From: a phage
DNA: 29,205 nucleotides
Assembly (NCBI GenBank): GCA_021683455.1
Contig: GCA_021683455.1_3051.3
Reading direction: 5' to 3' (one strand)
The notes under the pieces were generated by a model. It was not told the DNA's origin, did no database searches, and worked only from the letters and a program-made list of their open reading frames with translations. Below are positions 7,183 to 27,565 of this stretch, piece after piece. Position 1 is the stretch's first letter; the number at the start of each line of letters is the position of its first letter. Made by a program: the position numbers and the translations under genes.

Positions 7183-9879
7183 ATGAAAGAATTTTATATC
7201 TCTATTGAAACAGTCGGAAATAACATTGTTGAACGTTATATTGATGAAAACGGAAAGGAACGTACTCGTGAAGTAGAATATCTTCCAACTATGTTTAGGC
7301 ATTGTAAGGAAGAGTCAAAATACAAAGACATCTATGGTAAAAACTGCGCTCCTCAAAAATTTCCATCAATGAAAGATGCTCGAGATTGGATGAAACGAAT
7401 GGAAGACATCGGTCTCGAAGCTCTCGGTATGAACGATTTTAAACTCGCTTATATCAGTGATACATACGGTTCAGAAATTGTTTATGACCGAAAATTTGTT
7501 CGTGTAGCTAACTGTGACATTGAGGTTACTGGTGATAAATTTCCTGACCCAATGAAAGCAGAATATGAAATTGATGCTATCACTCATTACGATTCAATTG
7601 ATGATCGTTTTTATGTTTTCGACCTTTTGAATTCAATGTATGGTTCAGTATCAAAATGGGATGCAAAGTTAGCTGCTAAGCTTGACTGTGAAGGTGGTGA
7701 TGAAGTTCCTCAAGAAATTCTTGACCGAGTAATTTATATGCCATTCGATAATGAGCGTGATATGCTCATGGAATATATTAATCTTTGGGAACAGAAACGA
7801 CCTGCTATTTTTACTGGTTGGAATATTGAGGGATTTGACGTTCCGTATATCATGAATCGCGTTAAAATGGTTCTCGGTGAACGTAGCATGAAACGCTTCT
7901 CTCCAATCGGTCGAGTAAAATCTAAACTTATCCAAAATATGTACGGTAGCAAAGAAATTTATTCTATTGATGGCGTATCTATTCTTGATTATTTAGATTT
8001 GTATAAGAAATTCGCATTTACTAATTTGCCGTCATTCTCTTTGGAATCAGTTGCTCAGCATGAAACCAAAAAAGGTAAATTACCATACGACGGTCCTATT
8101 AATAAACTTCGTGAGACTAATCATCAACGATACATTAGTTATAACATCATTGACGTAGAATCAGTTCAAGCAATTGATAAAATTCGCGGGTTTATCGATC
8201 TAGTTTTAAGTATGTCTTATTACGCTAAAATGCCTTTTTCTGGTGTAATGAGTCCTATTAAAACTTGGGATGCTATTATTTTTAACTCATTGAAAGGTGA
8301 ACATAAGGTTATTCCTCAACAAGGTTCGCACGTTAAACAAAGTTTTCCGGGTGCATTTGTATTTGAACCTAAACCAATTGCTCGTCGATATATTATGAGT
8401 TTTGACTTGACGTCTCTGTATCCGAGCATTATTCGTCAGGTTAACATTAGTCCTGAGACTATTCGTGGTCAGTTTAAAGTTCATCCAATTCATGAATATA
8501 TCGCAGGAACAGCTCCTAAACCGAGTGATGAATATTCTTGTTCTCCGAATGGATGGATGTACGATAAGCATCAAGAAGGTATCATTCCAAAGGAAATCGC
8601 TAAAGTATTTTTCCAGCGTAAAGATTGGAAAAAGAAAATGTTCGCTGAAGAAATGAATGCCGAAGCTATTAAAAAGATTATTATGAAAGGCGCAGGGTCT
8701 TGTTCAACTAAACCGGAAGTTGAACGATATGTTAAGTTCAGTGATGATTTCTTAAATGAACTATCGAATTATACTGAATCTGTTCTCAATAGTTTGATTG
8801 AAGAATGTGAAAAAGCAGCTACACTTGCTAACACAAATCAGCTGAACCGTAAAATTCTTATTAATAGTCTTTACGGTGCTCTTGGTAATATTCATTTCCG
8901 TTACTATGATTTGCGAAATGCTACTGCTATCACAATTTTCGGCCAAGTTGGTATTCAGTGGATTGCTCGTAAAATTAATGAGTATCTGAATAAAGTATGT
9001 GGAACTAATGGCGAAGATTTCATCGCAGCAGGTGATACTGATTCGGTATATGTTTGTGTAGATAAAGTTATTGAAAAAGTTGGTCTTGACCGATTCAAAG
9101 AGCAGAACGATTTAGTTGAATTCATGAATCAGTTCGGTAAGAAAAAGATGGAACCTATGATTGATGTTGCATATCGTGAGTTATGTGATTATATGAATAA
9201 CCGTGAGCATCTGATGCATATGGACCGTGAAGCTATTTCTTGTCCTCCACTTGGTTCAAAGGGTGTTGGTGGTTTTTGGAAAGCGAAAAAGCGTTATGCT
9301 CTGAACGTTTATGATATGGAAGATAAGCGATTTGCTGAACCGCATCTAAAAATCATGGGTATGGAAACTCAACAGAGTTCAACACCAAAAGCAGTGCAAG
9401 AAGCTCTTGAAGAAAGTATTCGTCGTATTCTTCAAGAAGGCGAAGAGTCTGTCCAAGAATATTACAAAAACTTCGAGAAAGAATATCGTCAACTTGACTA
9501 TAAAGTTATTGCTGAAGTAAAAACTGCGAACGATATAGCGAAATATGATGATAAAGGCTGGCCAGGATTTAAATGCCCGTTCCATATTCGTGGGGTGCTA
9601 ACTTATCGTCGAGCTGTTAACGGTTTAGGTGTAGCTCCAATTTTGGATGGAAATAAGGTAATGGTTCTTCCATTACGTGAAGGAAATCCATTTGGTGACA
9701 AATGCATTGCTTGGCCGTCGGGCACAGAACTTCCAAAAGAAATTCGTTCTGACGTACTGTCTTGGATTGACTACTCAACTTTGTTCCAAAAATCGTTTGT
9801 TAAACCGCTTGCGGGTATGTGTGAATCGGCAGGTATGGACTATGAAGAAAAAGCTTCGTTAGACTTCCTGTTTGGCTGA
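7183..9879 (+). CDS. 43: DNA polymerase gp43 (family B, with 3'-5' exonuclease)
   Basis: 898 aa; exonuclease motif CDIEVTG, polymerase motif A DLTSLYPS, motif B KILINSLYG, motif C AGDTDS, KKRY motif. Contiguous ORF with no intein- or intron-like interruption. Confidence 0.95.
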   Translation: MKEFYISIETVGNNIVERYIDENGKERTREVEYLPTMFRHCKEESKYKDIYGKNCAPQKFPSMKDARDWMKRMEDIGLEALGMNDFKLAYISDTYGSEIVYDRKFVRVANCDIEVTGDKFPDPMKAEYEIDAITHYDSIDDRFYVFDLLNSMYGSVSKWDAKLAAKLDCEGGDEVPQEILDRVIYMPFDNERDMLMEYINLWEQKRPAIFTGWNIEGFDVPYIMNRVKMVLGERSMKRFSPIGRVKSKLIQNMYGSKEIYSIDGVSILDYLDLYKKFAFTNLPSFSLESVAQHETKKGKLPYDGPINKLRETNHQRYISYNIIDVESVQAIDKIRGFIDLVLSMSYYAKMPFSGVMSPIKTWDAIIFNSLKGEHKVIPQQGSHVKQSFPGAFVFEPKPIARRYIMSFDLTSLYPSIIRQVNISPETIRGQFKVHPIHEYIAGTAPKPSDEYSCSPNGWMYDKHQEGIIPKEIAKVFFQRKDWKKKMFAEEMNAEAIKKIIMKGAGSCSTKPEVERYVKFSDDFLNELSNYTESVLNSLIEECEKAATLANTNQLNRKILINSLYGALGNIHFRYYDLRNATAITIFGQVGIQWIARKINEYLNKVCGTNGEDFIAAGDTDSVYVCVDKVIEKVGLDRFKEQNDLVEFMNQFGKKKMEPMIDVAYRELCDYMNNREHLMHMDREAISCPPLGSKGVGGFWKAKKRYALNVYDMEDKRFAEPHLKIMGMETQQSSTPKAVQEALEESIRRILQEGEESVQEYYKNFEKEYRQLDYKVIAEVKTANDIAKYDDKGWPGFKCPFHIRGVLTYRRAVNGLGVAPILDGNKVMVLPLREGNPFGDKCIAWPSGTELPKEIRSDVLSWIDYSTLFQKSFVKPLAGMCESAGMDYEEKASLDFLFG

Positions 9880-9892
9880 TAGAATAAATCTA

Positions 9893-9913
9893 GGGACCTC
9901 CGGGTCCCTTTTT
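9893..9913 (+). terminator. Rho-independent terminator after gene 43
   Basis: GGGACC-UCCG-GGUCCC hairpin followed by TTTTT. Confidence 0.65.
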
Positions 9914-9997
9914 CATACAAGTAATATAAATCTATACTTATGAAAAACAGATGATTTTGGACCCTTTGAATTCATTAAAAATTTTTTCACAAAACTG

Positions 9998-10026
9998 TTT
10001 ACATCCCTGTTCTTCCATGGTACTAT
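9998..10026 (+). promoter_or_regulatory. T4-type early promoter
   Basis: -35 TTTACA (9998..10003), 17-nt spacer, -10 TACTAT (10021..10026); AAACTGTTTAC context. Confidence 0.5.
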
Positions 10027-10063
10027 ATCAATATCAACTACTGATACAGATTTGGAGAATAAA

Positions 10064-10300
10064 ATGAAAATTGTTATGGGATGCTTAGCAGTTTGTTTAG
10101 CTGCATTAGCAGCAGTTCCATTTGTTAGTGTTGAAAATGATACTCAACCTGTGATTGAATCTAGCACCGTTATTCACACTAATGGTAAAATATCAGTTAA
10201 AATTGATGATAATCTTCATGTGAATACAAATGGGTCTTTAGGTGTGCAAATGGGTAATATCTGCATAAGCACTACTGGAGTAATTACTACTTGCATTTGA
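10064..10300 (+). CDS. Small secreted/membrane protein with N-terminal signal peptide
   Basis: ATG at 10064 with GGAG SD; hydrophobic N-terminus MKIVMGCLAVCLAALAAV; first gene after an early promoter. The ORF-track start at 10052 is a TTG. Confidence 0.5.
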   Translation: MKIVMGCLAVCLAALAAVPFVSVENDTQPVIESSTVIHTNGKISVKIDDNLHVNTNGSLGVQMGNICISTTGVITTCI

Positions 10301-10310
10301 GGAAATTATT

Positions 10311-10691
10311 ATGAAAATCGCTATTTTGGTTATTGCATTAGGTCTTACTGGTTGTGTAGCTCAAGGACCGGTAGTAAATCAGTCTGATGTAGGAAAAATT
10401 GTAAACTGTTCAAGCAAATTTTATAATCCTAATGTCAAGTGTTATAAAGAAGCTCCAAAGCAAACAGTAGAACAAATGCAGGCAAATTTTGACGAAGCTA
10501 TTCGTCCAGATGAATCTGCTCAAGCATATCGTAATTCGGATGTAATTACACGCGAAGAAAAAATTGAAAACTACTGCGCCGAGCTTTGGGCAAATTGGGC
10601 TAATAATTACCAATGGCGTACCGGTAAAAATGCTCCGATGGAGTATGTAGTGAATTCTTATAATTCATGCGTAAAAAATTTGACTAAGTGA
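10311..10691 (+). CDS. Putative lipoprotein
   Basis: Signal peptide ending in lipobox LTGC (MKIAILVIALGLTGC); GAGGA SD; 126 aa. Confidence 0.55.
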   Translation: MKIAILVIALGLTGCVAQGPVVNQSDVGKIVNCSSKFYNPNVKCYKEAPKQTVEQMQANFDEAIRPDESAQAYRNSDVITREEKIENYCAELWANWANNYQWRTGKNAPMEYVVNSYNSCVKNLTK

Positions 10692-10698
10692 GGAAAAC

Positions 10699-10950
10699 AT
10701 GGAAACTTTAGTAGCAGGTTCAATTTTTATGGTTTTAGTTTCAGGTGTGTTGGCTATTATTATATACATGCTTCCATGGTTTATCGCCTTGATGCGTGGG
10801 TCAAAATCGACAGTAGGAATCTTTTTCACATCTTTACTGTTTAACTGGTCAATTATTGGTTGGTTTATTACATTTATTTGGTCAATTGCGGGTGAAACTA
10901 AAAAGTCTGCACAGCCAAATCAGGTAATTATCATCAGAGAGAAGGAATGA
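10699..10950 (+). CDS. imm: Imm-like two-transmembrane-segment membrane protein (superinfection immunity candidate)
   Basis: 83 aa with two hydrophobic segments; length and position between 43 and 42 match T4 imm. Assignment by synteny and length, not by a sequence search. Confidence 0.5.
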   Translation: METLVAGSIFMVLVSGVLAIIIYMLPWFIALMRGSKSTVGIFFTSLLFNWSIIGWFITFIWSIAGETKKSAQPNQVIIIREKE

Positions 10951-11096
10951 AAAGCAAAATTATAACAGTGTTGCTTTTAATCTTGATGATTATAATAAGT
11001 ATATACTATAGTGTAACGGTTCCTCCTATGATTCCAACTATTATTTTAGGTTGGGGTTTATTACTGTTACAAGTTAAATATGAATGTATCAATTGA
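10947..11096 (+). CDS. Small single-pass membrane peptide (49 aa)
   Basis: ATG overlaps the preceding stop (ATGA); hydrophobic core ITVLLLILMIIISIYY; below the 60-aa ORF-track cutoff. Confidence 0.4.
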   Translation: MKSKIITVLLLILMIIISIYYSVTVPPMIPTIILGWGLLLLQVKYECIN

Positions 11097-11103
11097 GGTT
11101 TAA

Positions 11104-11844
11104 ATGATTAGTGACTCTATGACAGTTGAAGAAATCCGTCTTCATTTGGGGCTTGCATTAAAAGAAAAAGATTTCGTAGTTGATAAAACTGGTGTTAAAA
11201 CTATTGAAATTATTGGCGCATCATTTGTAGCAGATGAACCGTTTATTTTTGGCGCTCTTAATGATGAATACATTCAGCGCGAACTTGAATGGTATAAATC
11301 TAAGAGTTTGTTTGTTAAAGATATTCCAGGTGAAACACCGAAGATTTGGCAACAAGTAGCATCTTCTAAAGGCGAAATTAACTCGAATTATGGTTGGGCT
11401 ATTTGGTCAGAAGATAACTATGCCCAGTATGATATGTGTTTAGCTGAACTTGGTCAAAACCCTGATTCTCGACGTGGTATCATGATTTATACTCGTCCAT
11501 CCATGCAATTTGACTACAATAAAGATGGTATGTCAGATTTCATGTGTACTAATACAGTACAGTACCTGATTCGTGATAAGAAAGTCAATGCAGTAGTAAG
11601 CATGCGCTCAAATGACGTGGTCTTCGGATTCCGTAATGATTATGCATGGCAAAAATACGTATTAGATAAATTAGTATCTGATTTGAATGCCGGCGATTCA
11701 ACTCGTCAGTATAAAGCAGGTTCTATTATATGGAATGTTGGAAGTCTTCATGTATATTCTCGTCATTTTTACTTGGTTGATCATTGGTGGAATACTGGCG
11801 AAACTCATATTGTGAAAAAAGACTATAAAGGTGAGTGGAAATGA
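11104..11844 (+). CDS. 42: dCMP hydroxymethylase gp42
   Basis: 246 aa, the T4 gp42 length; thymidylate-synthase-like fold with candidate catalytic Cys in FMCTN. Confidence 0.9.
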   Translation: MISDSMTVEEIRLHLGLALKEKDFVVDKTGVKTIEIIGASFVADEPFIFGALNDEYIQRELEWYKSKSLFVKDIPGETPKIWQQVASSKGEINSNYGWAIWSEDNYAQYDMCLAELGQNPDSRRGIMIYTRPSMQFDYNKDGMSDFMCTNTVQYLIRDKKVNAVVSMRSNDVVFGFRNDYAWQKYVLDKLVSDLNAGDSTRQYKAGSIIWNVGSLHVYSRHFYLVDHWWNTGETHIVKKDYKGEWK

Positions 11845-12683
11845 TTCAATTCGTAATTCCAAGTTATCAGCGTGTCGGGGCAGTTTCTGCCCTTGATATG
11901 TTTCCGACTGATTATGAACCCCATATTGTAGTGCGTGAACATGAAGAAAAAGCTTATTATGATGCCTATGGGTCTAGAGCTAAAATTATAACTATTCCTG
12001 ATGATGTAAACGGAATTGCCGGTACTCGTAAAGCAATTACTGATATGTATGCAGGTCAACGAATCTGGATGATTGACGATGATACTACTATTCGTATGAG
12101 TTCAATGCGAAAAAGAGATGACCGTCGTTGTGTAGATAAAGTCAATCAATTGACTCATGAACAGTTCTATGAATTGATTCAATACGTCGAAGATGCCATG
12201 GATTGCGGGTATTATCACGGTCATGCTCGCCTACCAATTTTTAAAATTACTTCATCTTGGGGTAATTATCGTGAAAACTCATATGGATTCACGAATACAT
12301 GGTATGACCTCGGAAAACTTACGACAGAACAAATTGGGTATGGAAAAATTGATTTGTGCGAAGATATGTATGCATTTCTCAATTTAATTAATCAAGGTTA
12401 TCCGCATTTGGCCTTGTTCAAATATCTGGTTGTATCTGGAAAAGCACAAGCTCCTGGCGGGTGCAGTTCAATTCGTAGTAATTCTAAACATAATAGAGCG
12501 CTTGAGCAAATCAATAGAGAGTTTCCAGAGCAAGCTCGTTGGAAAACTTCTAATATTGAAAAACGAAAATCGTTGGGTGAAGAAGACGAGCCATTAAAGG
12601 TTCTTCGCATGTGTGTTTCACGTAAAGAAAAATCAGAAGCATTTCATAAGTTTAATGCTATTCATCCAATAGCAGTTGATTAA
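11841..12683 (+). CDS. Putative DNA-sugar glycosyltransferase (GT-A/GT2-like), occupying the locus where T4 carries beta-glucosyltransferase
   Basis: 281 aa from ATG 11841 (ATGA overlap with gene 42 stop); N-terminal FVIPSYQR and acidic WMIDDD (DXD-like) motifs typical of GT-A fold transferases; does not resemble T4 beta-gt as I recall it. Confidence 0.55.
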   Translation: MIQFVIPSYQRVGAVSALDMFPTDYEPHIVVREHEEKAYYDAYGSRAKIITIPDDVNGIAGTRKAITDMYAGQRIWMIDDDTTIRMSSMRKRDDRRCVDKVNQLTHEQFYELIQYVEDAMDCGYYHGHARLPIFKITSSWGNYRENSYGFTNTWYDLGKLTTEQIGYGKIDLCEDMYAFLNLINQGYPHLALFKYLVVSGKAQAPGGCSSIRSNSKHNRALEQINREFPEQARWKTSNIEKRKSLGEEDEPLKVLRMCVSRKEKSEAFHKFNAIHPIAVD

Positions 12684-16276: not shown

Positions 16277-16570
16277 ATGAAAAAATTTATTTTTGCTACA
16301 ATTTTTACTTTGGCTTCTTGTGCTGCTCAGCCTGCTATGGCAGGTTATGATAAAGATTTGTGTGAATGGTCTATGACTGCAGATCAGACTGAAGTTGAAA
16401 CTCAAATTGAAGCGGATATTATGAATATTGTTGAGCGCGATCGTCCTGAAATGAAAGCTGAAGTGCAAAAACAACTTAAGTCTGGCGGTGTAATGCAGTA
16501 TAATTATGTTCTGTATTGCGATAAAAACTTTAATAACAAAGATATCGTAACCGAAATCACAGGTGAATAA
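16277..16570 (+). CDS. sp: Spackle-like periplasmic protein (superinfection exclusion / lysozyme inhibitor)
   Basis: 97 aa with a cleavable signal peptide (MKKFIFATIFTLASCAAQPAMA); length and position match T4 sp (61.3). Confidence 0.6.
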   Translation: MKKFIFATIFTLASCAAQPAMAGYDKDLCEWSMTADQTEVETQIEADIMNIVERDRPEMKAEVQKQLKSGGVMQYNYVLYCDKNFNNKDIVTEITGE

Positions 16571-26415: not shown

Positions 26416-26647
26416 AGACCAGTTTTATCTGCTTCAAGATAAAGTAAGCGAAATTTATGAAATAGCTTATAGTAAAAATCGCAAAAACGTGAAAATTGAA
26501 TCAGGCAAGTTAATGCTTCAATTGGAAGAAATTGAACGAGATTTAATTGCGTTAGAATTCTTTTGCGGCGAAGTGAAAACTGTCACAATCAGTGATTATG
26601 TTTTGGGTGAAATTAACCATCTTTATAAGGCGGTTATTAATGATTGA
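26402..26647 (+). CDS. Small hypothetical protein; start uncertain (GTG 26402 or TTG 26387)
   Basis: ORF overlaps the end of the previous gene; GAGG 9 nt upstream of GTG 26402. Confidence 0.4.
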   Translation: MEITKDQFYLLQDKVSEIYEIAYSKNRKNVKIESGKLMLQLEEIERDLIALEFFCGEVKTVTISDYVLGEINHLYKAVIND

Positions 26648-26882
26648 ATTAAGTTGGTATCAGTTTAAATCTCTTATGGCAAATGTTAAAGCTGTCATTG
26701 AAGAAAATCCAGGACCTGAAAATGTAACTATTCGTGAAAAAGCTTCAAAGATAGTATACAGTCTTGAAGAGATGCAAAAAGATATTGAATCTATGGCAAA
26801 ATTTATGGATGAGCCTATTAATAAAGTTTATATTCAAGATTATACTGTAGGTCAAATTCGCGATTTAGCGAGGAAAGTTTAA
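26640..26882 (+). CDS. Small hypothetical protein
   Basis: ATG 26640 overlaps the preceding stop; its own stop overlaps the dexA start (TAATG). The ORF-track start at 26592 is a longer upstream extension. Confidence 0.4.
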   Translation: MIELSWYQFKSLMANVKAVIEENPGPENVTIREKASKIVYSLEEMQKDIESMAKFMDEPINKVYIQDYTVGQIRDLARKV

Positions 26883-27565
26883 TGTTTGATTTTATTATAG
26901 ATTTTGAAACAATGGGAAGCGGTGAAAAGGCAGCTGTTATTGATTTGGCTGTTATTGCCTTTGACCCTAATCCAGAAGTCGTTGAAACATTTGATGAATT
27001 AGTTTCACGTGGCATTAAAATCAAATTTGATTTAAAAAGCCAAAAAGGACATCGTCTTTTTACTAAAAGCACTATCGAATGGTGGAAGAATCAATCTCCT
27101 GAAGCTCGAAAAAATATTGCGCCATCAGATGAAGATGTAAGCACTATCGATGGCATTGCAAAATTTAATGATTACATCAATGCGCATAATATCGATCCTT
27201 GGAAATCTCAAGGCTGGTGCCGTGGAATGTCGTTTGATTTTCCAATTTTAGTCGATCTCATTCGCGATATTCAACGTCTTAACGGCGTTTCCGAGAATGA
27301 GCTTGATACATTTAAGTTAGAACCGTGTAAATTCTGGAATCAGCGTGATATTCGTACCAGAATTGAAGCACTTCTCCTTGTTCGTGATATGACCACGTGT
27401 CCTCTTCCAAAAGGAACTTTAGATGGATTCGTTGCACATGATTCTATTCATGACTGTGCGAAAGACATCCTGATGATGAAGTATGCTTTGCGCTATGCTA
27501 TGGGTCTTGAAGATGCTCCGTCAGAGGAAGAGTGCGATCCTCTGTCTCTTCCAACAAAACGATAA
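26882..27565 (+). CDS. dexA: Exonuclease A (DexA), DEDDh-type 3'-5' exonuclease
   Basis: 227 aa; motifs IDFETMG (D-x-E), AHDSIHDCAKD (H-x4-D); positioned after dda as in T4. Confidence 0.75.
   Translation: MFDFIIDFETMGSGEKAAVIDLAVIAFDPNPEVVETFDELVSRGIKIKFDLKSQKGHRLFTKSTIEWWKNQSPEARKNIAPSDEDVSTIDGIAKFNDYINAHNIDPWKSQGWCRGMSFDFPILVDLIRDIQRLNGVSENELDTFKLEPCKFWNQRDIRTRIEALLLVRDMTTCPLPKGTLDGFVAHDSIHDCAKDILMMKYALRYAMGLEDAPSEEECDPLSLPTKR

What the first reader, a model, noticed from the sequence alone, without database searches (positions are those of the whole stretch)
10064..10691. Secreted small protein and lipoprotein encoded immediately downstream of DNA polymerase, next to the Imm-like gene
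Behind an early promoter after gene 43 lie a 78-aa protein with a signal peptide and a 126-aa protein with a textbook lipobox (LTGC). They are followed by the 83-aa two-TM Imm-like protein and a 49-aa single-TM peptide. Four consecutive envelope-targeted small proteins expressed early is the pattern expected for superinfection exclusion or receptor-masking functions. I cannot say from memory whether T4 has counterparts of the first two.
Basis: partly seen in the sequence, partly recalled or inferred. Interest (0 to 1): 0.45.

Follow-up and report, generated by a model that had tools for sequence, protein, structure and literature searches.

The report
T4 Imm.1 lipoprotein plus accessory ORF
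The two small genes after the DNA polymerase gene of this T4-like phage are real: one is an optional secreted or membrane-anchored protein that T4 lacks, and the other is the uncharacterised T4 lipoprotein gene imm.1, which sits next to the superinfection-immunity gene imm in every related phage examined and so probably works with it.

Summary
The window is a Tequatrovirus (T4-like) segment. After gene 43 come a terminator hairpin, a conserved early-type promoter, orf78 (10064-10300), a 126-aa lipoprotein gene (10311-10691), imm, a 49-aa hydrophobic ORF, then gene 42.

The 126-aa protein is the ortholog of T4 Imm.1 (Pfam DUF5481, about 99% identical). It has a conserved lipobox, no Asp at +2, and paired cysteines. 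It is under very strong purifying selection (dN/dS 0-0.03). In T4 it is early at both RNA and protein level.

orf78 is a real but dispensable, faster-evolving gene (dN/dS about 0.3). It occurs in about 326 phage records against about 502 for Tequatrovirus imm.1. T4 lacks it through a clean 247-bp ATG-to-ATG difference.

New here: an Imm.1-type lipoprotein gene sits beside imm in all seven Tevenvirinae genera sampled and three metagenomic lineages. This holds across four different genomic arrangements, one of them directly beside spackle.

Best reading: Imm.1 is an outer-membrane-tethered periplasmic partner of the Imm system that blocks genome delivery. Receptor masking is unlikely.

No function has been tested, and Imm alone excludes T4 when expressed from a plasmid. 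These are known genes of unknown function; interest is moderate.

The parts
9892..9909 (+). Terminator-like GC-rich hairpin with a T run, just after the gene 43 stop codon (9879)
   Evidence: 7-bp stem, 5 GC pairs; 4 such sites found against 0.6 expected. Conserved in T4 with a compensable change.
9998..10026 (+). Sigma-70/T4-early-type promoter-like site: TTTACA, 17-nt spacer, TACTAT, with TG before the -10 and an A/T-rich tract upstream
   Evidence: Both hexamers are invariant between the window and T4 while adjacent spacer bases differ. T4 imm.1 is classed as an early transcript.
10064..10300 (+). orf78: accessory 78-aa protein (phrog_4189). It has an N-terminal signal peptide or signal anchor and a roughly 55-aa beta-rich periplasmic part with two C-terminal Cys. 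Absent from T4.
   Evidence: Absence from T4.
10311..10691 (+). imm.1 ortholog: 126-aa lipoprotein precursor (Pfam DUF5481). Lipobox LTGC with Cys15, Val at +2, and four further Cys (33, 44, 89, 120).
   Evidence: (239 bits against a cut-off of 27).
10699..10950 (+). imm: 83-aa inner-membrane superinfection immunity protein
   Evidence: PF14373; phrog_1039; 100% identical to Imm of T6, RB32 and others.
10947..11096 (+). orf49: 49-aa hydrophobic peptide (phrog_3610). Its ATG overlaps the imm stop codon (ATGA), which suggests translational coupling. Unannotated in the T4 RefSeq record; called 42.1 in RB32.
16277..16570 (+). sp (spackle): the other T4 superinfection-exclusion gene, 5.3 kb downstream in this window. 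In Mosigvirus it lies directly after imm.1-imm.
   Evidence: PF25676, E 5.8e-45. Mosigvirus arrangement.

Best explanation
What is shown. The region is the superinfection-immunity cluster of a T4-like phage. It is transcribed from an early promoter downstream of the gene 43 terminator. The 126-aa ORF is the ortholog of T4 imm.1. Its product carries a type II (lipoprotein) signal sequence, so it should be lipid-modified at Cys15 and cleaved by signal peptidase II.

What is inferred about its location. None of the homologs has Asp at +2, so the Lol pathway should sort it to the inner leaflet of the outer membrane. That would leave a roughly 111-residue periplasmic protein. It would consist of a flexible N-terminal tether with a conserved G-x-V-V-x-x-S-x-V-G-K / YNP motif and a C-terminal helical hairpin clamped by a Cys89-Cys120 disulfide.

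What is inferred about its function. Imm.1 is probably the periplasmic, outer-membrane-tethered partner of Imm. Imm is the inner-membrane protein that binds the tape-measure protein gp29 of a superinfecting phage and stops genome translocation. The most likely action is that Imm.1 engages the incoming tail-tip or tape-measure apparatus, or Imm itself, in the periplasm. This would make the block faster or more complete. Imm.1 would be an enhancer rather than an essential component.

orf78. This is a separate, dispensable add-on. It is exported or anchored in the inner membrane with a small beta-rich periplasmic domain. It is carried by about two thirds of Tequatroviruses and evolves faster. Its likely role is a strain-specific modifier of envelope or exclusion functions.

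My confidence by layer: gene identity and lipoprotein nature about 0.95, functional coupling to Imm about 0.5, the specific mode of action about 0.25.
For: Identity:
- Pfam DUF5481, E 5e-72.
- The gene aligns base for base with T4 imm.1 between genes 43 and imm.

Lipoprotein nature:
- The strict lipobox pattern is met.
- The lipobox Cys is kept in 8 of 9 aligned divergent homologs, and in every additional homolog inspected, down to 18-21% identity.
- The +2 residue is V, G, A, Q or S, and never D.

Periplasmic location:
- C89 and C120 are invariant.
- C33 and C44 are present together or absent together.

Structure:
- Only the C-terminal helix hairpin (81-125) is predicted with confidence, at pLDDT 85-92.

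Constraint:
- dN/dS is 0-0.03, as low as for the DNA polymerase gene.

Expression:
- Conserved promoter.
- T4 imm.1 is early at RNA and protein level, the same class as sp.

Linkage to imm:
- tblastn finds Imm.1 in 657 phage records. Imm at 60% identity or more is found in 658.
- A whole-library phmmer search finds only 6 representative clusters. Four are divergent (P0018-P0021) and two are fragments 96-97% identical to the query. Each of the four divergent ones lies directly upstream of a PF14373 gene.
- The pair occurs in four arrangements:
  1. 43>imm.1>imm>42: Tequatrovirus, Gelderlandvirus, Karamvirus, Jiaodavirus.
  2. dmd>(DUF7279 ORF in L008-L010)>imm.1>imm>sp: Mosigvirus.
  3. frd.3>imm.1>imm>orf49: metagenomic locus L005.
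  4. 43>imm>orf47>lipoprotein: Gaprivervirus, Dhakavirus.
.

Known mechanism of Imm:
- Imm binds the gp29 tape-measure protein (bioRxiv 10.64898/2026.03.06.709160).

orf78:
-.
Against: - No experiment addresses Imm.1 or orf78. I found no paper on imm.1 or DUF5481 function.
- The 2026 Imm-gp29 study does not mention imm.1. It shows that Imm alone, expressed from a plasmid, lowers T4 plating. Imm.1 is therefore not required for Imm activity.
- From memory (Lu and Henning 1989), disruption of imm alone abolishes immunity. Imm.1 would then not be sufficient.
- Gene order is generally conserved in T4-like phages. Adjacency within a single genus therefore carries little weight, and the argument rests on the rearranged arrangements.
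- Homology of the 147-167-aa lipoproteins of Karam-, Jiaoda-, Gelderland-, Dhaka- and Gaprivervirus to DUF5481 is only suggestive: Pfam gives no hit, hhalign gives 92% probability over the N-terminal half including the signal peptide, and Foldseek against BFVD gives E 0.02.
- One homolog (P0018) has Phe in place of the lipobox Cys. Lipid anchoring is therefore not absolutely required.
- The structure model is poor for residues 1-80.
- Outer-membrane sorting is inferred from the E. coli +2 rule only.
Confidence: 0.45

Rival explanations
1. Receptor masking (one of the two functions the first reader proposed). Imm.1 and/or orf78 would bind the phage's outer-membrane receptor from the periplasmic side and block adsorption or triggering by later phages. 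This is how the T5 Llp lipoprotein acts on FhuA, and how Cor acts in T1 and phi80.
For: Imm.1 is a predicted outer-membrane lipoprotein that is made early, like Llp. orf78 is variable and accessory, as might be expected of a receptor-specific factor.
Against: Every Tequatrovirus Imm.1 hit is at least 95% identical. T4 and T6 are among the records with a hit, and from general knowledge they use different receptors (OmpC/LPS and Tsx).

There is no sequence or fold similarity to any solved structure, Llp included. The model was poor, so this is weak evidence.

Classical work (from memory) shows that superinfecting T-even phages still adsorb and eject DNA into the periplasm.
Confidence: 0.1
2. Imm.1 has an envelope function unrelated to Imm. 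Examples would be protecting the infected cell from lysis from without, modulating lysis inhibition, inhibiting a host periplasmic or outer-membrane defence, or inhibiting a muramidase in the way lipoprotein lysozyme inhibitors do. Its adjacency to imm would then reflect only a shared early 'envelope' transcription unit.
For: Imm works without it when expressed from a plasmid. In Mosigvirus the cluster also contains sp and 61.2/AdfA, so this neighbourhood collects several envelope and defence-related genes. The family has no recognisable functional domain.
Against: The lipoprotein gene follows imm specifically through four different arrangements. Its other neighbours (43, 42, dmd, sp, frd.3) change. 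Co-occurrence is near perfect, at 657 against 658 records.
Confidence: 0.3
3. orf78 is a dispensable 'moron' with no role in exclusion. It would be a small exported protein that persists by linkage and is being lost in some lineages.
For: It is absent from T4 and from all outgroup lineages examined. It has decayed or is fused in Shigella phage CT01. Its hydrophobic segment varies in length through 7-aa duplications. The structure model is of low confidence. It has no family beyond Tequatrovirus.
Against: dN/dS of about 0.3 over 37-41 substitutions shows selection on the protein. It is retained in 326 records with an intact frame and a good Shine-Dalgarno sequence. Two C-terminal Cys and the repeat motifs T-N-G-x-[IL]-x-V are conserved.
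Confidence: 0.35

Closest known systems
T4 Imm.1 (gene imm.1, NP_049661, UniProt P18057; Pfam DUF5481)
   Same: It is the ortholog. The gene occupies the same position between 43 and imm and is about 99% identical in protein. The lipobox is equivalent (LTGC here, LAGC in T4) and the cysteines are the same.
   Different: It is one residue longer at the C terminus because of a 1-nt indel. In T4 the gene directly follows the leader and Shine-Dalgarno sequence that here belong to orf78.
T4 Imm (PF14373) and Spackle (PF25676), the two characterised T-even superinfection-exclusion proteins
   Same: All are early, small and targeted to the envelope. imm is the immediate neighbour, and sp is the next neighbour in Mosigvirus.
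   Different: There is no sequence similarity to either. Imm is an integral inner-membrane protein. Sp is a soluble periplasmic inhibitor of the gp5 lysozyme. Imm.1 is a lipid-anchored protein whose target is unknown.
T5 Llp and the Cor proteins of T1, phi80 and N15 (superinfection-exclusion lipoproteins that block FhuA)
   Same: Each is a small phage-encoded outer-membrane lipoprotein, made early or from a prophage, that acts against later-arriving phage.
   Different: No homology was detected. Imm.1 is nearly invariant across phages that use different receptors, so a receptor-plug mechanism is unlikely.
HK97 gp15 and other inner-membrane exclusion proteins that target the tape-measure protein
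   Same: The proposed pathway is the same: a block of genome delivery at the tape-measure step. The 2026 preprint draws this comparison for Imm.
   Different: Those are single inner-membrane proteins. A lipoprotein partner has not been described for them.

Membership tests
T4 Imm.1 / Pfam DUF5481 | Match to the family HMM above the gathering score | tested here: met
   239.2 bits against a cut-off of 27, covering the whole profile 1-103. Also matches phrog_1754 at 5e-44.
T4 Imm.1 / Pfam DUF5481 | Orthologous position and near-identity to T4 imm.1 | tested here: met
   Collinear alignment with T4 positions 26636-27013. tblastn gives 99.2% identity to AF158101 imm.1.
Bacterial lipoproteins (Lgt/LspA/Lnt substrates) | Positively charged n-region, hydrophobic h-region and a lipobox [LVI][ASTVI][GAS]C | tested here: met
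   MKIAILVIALGLTGC matches the strict pattern. There is also a weak Pfam LPAM_1 hit.
Bacterial lipoproteins (Lgt/LspA/Lnt substrates) | Conservation of the lipobox cysteine among homologs | tested here: met
   Kept in 8 of 9 sequences in alignment A5, and in the CkP1, Metamorpho, UGJNEcP3 and PhAPEC2 homologs. The exception is P0018, which has Phe.
Bacterial lipoproteins (Lgt/LspA/Lnt substrates) | Actual lipid modification and outer-membrane localisation | not testable with these tools
   This needs palmitate labelling, globomycin treatment and membrane fractionation. Here only the +2 rule (no Asp) could be applied.
Sec signal peptide proteins (applies to orf78) | n-h-c architecture with a signal peptidase I site | tested here: inconclusive
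   K2, the hydrophobic stretch 3-23 and ALA|A sites are present. However, the hydrophobic stretch is long enough for a membrane anchor and is 7 or more residues longer in some alleles. SignalP was not available.
Receptor-blocking exclusion lipoproteins (T5 Llp, Cor) | Sequence or fold similarity to Llp or Cor | tested here: not met
   No Pfam, PHROG-function or PDB match. The fold test is weak because the model had a pLDDT of 64.
Receptor-blocking exclusion lipoproteins (T5 Llp, Cor) | Specific binding to the phage's own outer-membrane receptor | not testable with these tools
   Indirect evidence is against it: all Tequatrovirus hits are at least 95% identical, although T4 and T6 use different receptors (general knowledge).
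T4 Spackle (PF25676) | Match to the Spackle HMM | tested here: not met
   Neither ORF matches. The true sp gene is at 16277-16570.
o-spanins (Rz1-type outer-membrane lipoproteins) | Gene embedded in or next to an i-spanin gene within a late lysis cassette | tested here: not met
   The neighbours are gene 43, imm and gene 42. The gene is early in T4.

The most novel reading that the evidence does not exclude
T-even superinfection immunity would not be the work of Imm alone. It would be carried out by a conserved trans-envelope module with three parts:
- an outer-membrane lipoprotein (Imm.1);
- the inner-membrane protein Imm;
- in many lineages, a translationally coupled hydrophobic peptide of about 47-49 aa (orf49).

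In this reading Imm.1 captures or mispositions the tail tip or tape-measure protein of a superinfecting phage in the periplasm, and Imm then blocks pore formation. orf78 would be a lineage-specific fourth component that tunes specificity.
Probability: 0.3. Interest if true: 0.6.

Novelty: already known. Interest (0 to 1): 0.35.

Why it matters
Imm has been known for 50 years, and its target, the tape-measure protein gp29, was reported only in a 2026 preprint. Its constant companion imm.1 has apparently never been studied: I found no paper on it, and RefSeq even labels it 'iduronate sulfatase'.

Three results make it a well-defined, easily testable candidate for a missing component of T-even superinfection exclusion or envelope protection:
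- Imm.1 is a conserved lipoprotein.
- Its sequence is as constrained as that of the DNA polymerase.
- It moves with imm through four genome arrangements in seven genera.

If it has a role, current single-protein models of Imm, and plasmid assays that use imm alone, underestimate the natural system. If it has none, the finding is ordinary annotation of a T4-like phage.

Tried and rejected
- **Literature.** Searches for DUF5481 and imm.1 found nothing on function. The T4 genome review PMC150520 is not held.
- **Word-indexed homolog search for Imm.1.** It returned only near-identical proteins.
- **Exhaustive phmmer search for Imm.1.** It gave just six representative clusters, so there is no bacterial relative to borrow a function from.
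- **NCBIfam and PADLOC.** Only sub-threshold noise was found: YidC, DRT, a Type I restriction-modification specificity-subunit model, and 2TM-TIR.
- **PDB sequence-profile search.** For Imm.1 it matched only the BamE lipoprotein signal peptide, at E of about 3. For orf78 it returned noise.
- **AlphaFold2 models.**
  - Imm.1: mean pLDDT 64, with only the C-terminal hairpin confident.
  - orf78: pLDDT 54.
- **Foldseek for Imm.1.**
  - Against PDB: nothing at E of 0.001 or better.
  - Against BFVD: only its own family, plus 'Lipoprotein' entries of Citrobacter and Klebsiella T4-like phages.
  - orf78 was not fold-searched because its model is too poor.
- **SlyB resemblance.** After the lipobox there is a short motif, GC....GDV..ASE, that resembles the N terminus of E. 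coli SlyB. hhalign gave only 17% probability, so I rejected it as evidence.
- **Pfam on distant positional homologs.** The S16, Roth51, TH44 and CUA3 lipoproteins gave no DUF5481 hit.
- **Alternative start codons.**
  - TTG at 10052 for orf78 is rejected because it overlaps the Shine-Dalgarno sequence.
  - The 94-aa extended Imm start is rejected for this phage because of in-frame stop codons.

Full report
**What is there**

The window is a segment of a Tequatrovirus (T4-like phage). A 1.2-kb query covering the finding matches 534 phage records at 80-99% identity, nearly all of them Escherichia, Shigella or Yersinia T4-like phages.

The local gene order is as follows:
- gene 43, DNA polymerase: 7183-9879
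- orf78: 10064-10300
- a 126-aa ORF: 10311-10691
- imm: 10699-10950
- a 49-aa ORF: 10947-11096
- gene 42, dCMP hydroxymethylase: 11104-11844

Each small ORF has a good Shine-Dalgarno sequence. Between gene 43 and orf78 lie two signals:
- a terminator-like hairpin at 9892-9909;
- a promoter-like site, TTTACA-17-TACTAT, with an extended -10 TG, at 9998-10026.

Both hexamers are identical in T4 while neighbouring bases differ.

**The 126-aa ORF is T4 imm.1**

It matches Pfam DUF5481 at 239 bits, against a cut-off of 27, and phrog_1754. It aligns base for base with T4 imm.1 (NP_049661) and is about 99% identical in protein.

The N terminus, MKIAILVIALGLTGC, fits a strict lipoprotein pattern, with Cys15 and Val at +2. 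T4 has LAGC at the same place.

The family is very narrow. An exhaustive phmmer search of 1.8 billion representative proteins found only six clusters. Aligning these shows three things:
- the lipobox is kept in all but one;
- Cys89 and Cys120 are invariant;
- Cys33 and Cys44 are present together or absent together.

This is the pattern expected for two disulfides in an oxidising (periplasmic) compartment. No homolog has Asp at +2. By the E. coli Lol sorting rule, which is established knowledge and not tested here, the protein should therefore go to the outer membrane.

AlphaFold2 gives a confident model only for a C-terminal helical hairpin (residues 81-125, pLDDT 85-92). The N-terminal two thirds are poorly predicted. 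No solved structure resembles it.

**It is a real, strongly constrained, early gene**

Against six other Tequatroviruses, imm.1 shows 9-14 synonymous but only 0-1 non-synonymous differences (dN/dS 0-0.03). This is as low as for the flanking DNA polymerase and gene 42 segments.

A time-resolved T4 transcriptome and proteome study lists imm.1 (P18057) as early at both RNA and protein level, in the same class as sp and dmd (PMC9697503 supplement).

**orf78 is an accessory gene that T4 lacks**

T4 has no counterpart. Exactly 247 bp are missing, from the ATG of orf78 to the ATG of imm.1. Both genes begin ATGAAAAT, so in T4 imm.1 sits directly behind what is here the orf78 leader and Shine-Dalgarno sequence. 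This junction fits a microhomology-mediated deletion or insertion.

The more distant lineages examined also lack orf78. A gain within Tequatrovirus is therefore as plausible as a loss in T4.

Distribution and variation:
- tblastn finds orf78 in 326 phage records, against 502 for Tequatrovirus-type imm.1. Identities run from 99% to below 60%.
- In the same phage pairs where Imm.1 is 99-100% identical, orf78 is 77-82% identical. Its dS is 0.39-0.42, against about 0.13-0.25 in the flanking gene 43 and gene 42 segments, and its dN/dS is 0.28-0.34.
- So it is a genuine coding gene under weaker constraint, with older or mosaic alleles.
- In Shigella phage CT01 it is partly deleted and is annotated as fused to imm.1.

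Predicted protein features:
- K2 is followed by a 21-residue hydrophobic stretch with possible ALA|A cleavage sites.
- Alleles differ by 7-aa tandem duplications inside this stretch, and one allele gains a lipobox-like LAAC that UniRef names 'Lipoprotein'.
- Whether it is a cleaved signal peptide or a membrane anchor therefore remains open.
- The remaining roughly 55 residues are predicted to be beta-rich, at low confidence.
- They contain three T-[NT]-G-x-[IL]-x-V-like repeats and two conserved C-terminal cysteines.
- No family or structure match exists beyond phrog_4189.

**The lipoprotein travels with imm**

This is the main new result. Imm.1 occurs in 657 phage records, and Imm at 60% identity or more occurs in 658. 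Every divergent Imm.1 lineage I could place on a contig has a PF14373 (Imm) gene as its immediate neighbour, even though the surroundings differ. There are four arrangements:

1. **43 > imm.1 > imm > 42.**
   - Seen in Tequatrovirus and in two metagenomic lineages 32-41% identical (L004, L006).
   - The same layout, with 147-148-aa lipoproteins, occurs in Gelderlandvirus S16, Karamvirus CkP1 and Jiaodavirus Roth51 and Metamorpho.
2. **dmd > imm.1 > imm > sp > 61.2.**
   - Seen in Mosigvirus; the metagenomic loci L008-L010 also carry a DUF7279 ORF before imm.1.
   - Here the pair sits beside the other exclusion gene, spackle.
3. **frd.3 > imm.1 > imm > orf49.**
   - Seen in metagenomic locus L005.
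4. **43 > imm > orf47 > 166-167-aa lipoprotein.**
   - Seen in Gaprivervirus TH44 and in Dhakavirus UGJNEcP3; CUA3, whose genus is not given in its record, shares the layout.
   - The order is permuted relative to T4.

The longer lipoproteins share several features with Imm.1:
- the lipobox;
- a G-[DEP]-x-V-x-A-x-E-[VI]-G motif just after it;
- a conserved Tyr;
- the two C-terminal cysteines.

Formal homology, however, is only suggestive: Pfam gives no hit, hhalign gives 92% probability over the N-terminal half, and Foldseek gives E 0.02. An Imm homolog in an unrelated Acinetobacter phage has no lipoprotein neighbour.

**Interpretation**

Imm is an inner-membrane protein that blocks genome entry. 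A 2026 preprint shows that it binds the tape-measure protein gp29, and that Imm alone from a plasmid reduces T4 plating. That work does not mention imm.1 (bioRxiv 10.64898/2026.03.06.709160).

Given the linkage, the early expression and the predicted outer-membrane, periplasm-facing location, the best-supported reading is as follows. Imm.1 is an accessory periplasmic component of the same barrier. It acts on the incoming tail tip or tape-measure protein, or on Imm itself. This is inference, and no step of it has been shown.

Receptor masking is unlikely. All Tequatrovirus Imm.1 hits are at least 95% identical, including in phages that, from general knowledge, use different receptors. A role in another envelope function remains a serious rival. 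Examples are resistance to lysis from without, lysis inhibition and counter-defence.

orf78 may be a strain-specific modifier or simply a dispensable moron.

**Comparison and novelty**

Both genes are already present in databases. imm.1 is annotated in T4 as a 'hypothetical predicted membrane protein', and orf78 appears as a hypothetical protein in hundreds of phages. As a sequence feature, the finding is therefore already known.

What I could not find in the literature I searched is:
- a function for either gene;
- recognition that Imm.1-type lipoproteins form a constant module with imm, and often with a translationally coupled 45-49-aa peptide, across Tevenvirinae.

This is a clear and cheap hypothesis to test, which makes the finding of moderate interest.

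Noticed in passing
window 10947-11096; T4 locus L002 3228-3377 (minus strand); L014 1740-1883; L012 1734-1871; L020 about 1692-1829; L005 1341-1490: The 49-aa hydrophobic ORF after imm is not annotated in the T4 RefSeq record, although it is intact there (92% identical). RB32 calls it 42.1. Its ATG overlaps the imm stop codon (ATGA) in Tequatro-, Gapriver- and Dhakavirus, and the motif MIPT[IL]I[LI]GW...Y[EN]C[FI]N is conserved. It looks like a real gene that is translationally coupled to imm. Mosigvirus lacks it.
   Followed up: partly
window 10660-10700 compared with T4 L002 3626-3658: A 2026 preprint used a 94-residue Imm that starts at an earlier ATG in T4. In this phage a 1-nt indel places in-frame stop codons there (IIHA*KI*LSEENMETLV). 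The extension is therefore not conserved, and the 83-aa start is the conserved one.
   Followed up: yes
orf78 alleles P0008, P0014, P0015 (alignment A2): The hydrophobic N-terminal segment of orf78 carries tandem 7-aa (21-bp) duplications in some phages. P0015 also has an expanded IDIDIDIE run. One duplication creates a lipobox-like LAAC.
   Followed up: partly
L019 (Shigella phage CT01) 1009-1846: orf78 is partly deleted or frameshifted here. The record annotates a 179-aa ORF that runs into imm.1. This is either decay of orf78 or a mis-called start.
   Followed up: no
NC_000866 T4p046; RB18 KMB98_gp047; ECML-134; JLBYU31: RefSeq and several GenBank records name imm.1 'iduronate sulfatase'. 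Other records call it 'immunity protein'. Nothing in Pfam, NCBIfam or PDB supports a sulfatase, so this looks like a propagated annotation error.
   Followed up: partly
window 11835-12683: The gene after 42 encodes a 282-aa TAGT-family glycosyltransferase (PF20691, E 1e-9). T4 instead has the 351-aa beta-glucosyltransferase followed by segA, so this phage differs from T4 in its hydroxymethylcytosine glycosylation genes. The ORF starts with GTG and overlaps the end of gene 42.
   Followed up: partly
L023 (Acinetobacter phage IME284) 1486-1808: An Imm-family gene in an unrelated Obolenskvirus is also followed by an overlapping 37-aa single-TM ORF, but has no lipoprotein neighbour. This may be a parallel to imm-orf49, or it may be chance.
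   Followed up: no
window 9951-10067: A 38-aa ORF overlaps the promoter region upstream of orf78. Some metagenome gene calls (P0005, P0006, P0011) read it through into orf78. It is most likely not a gene.
   Followed up: no
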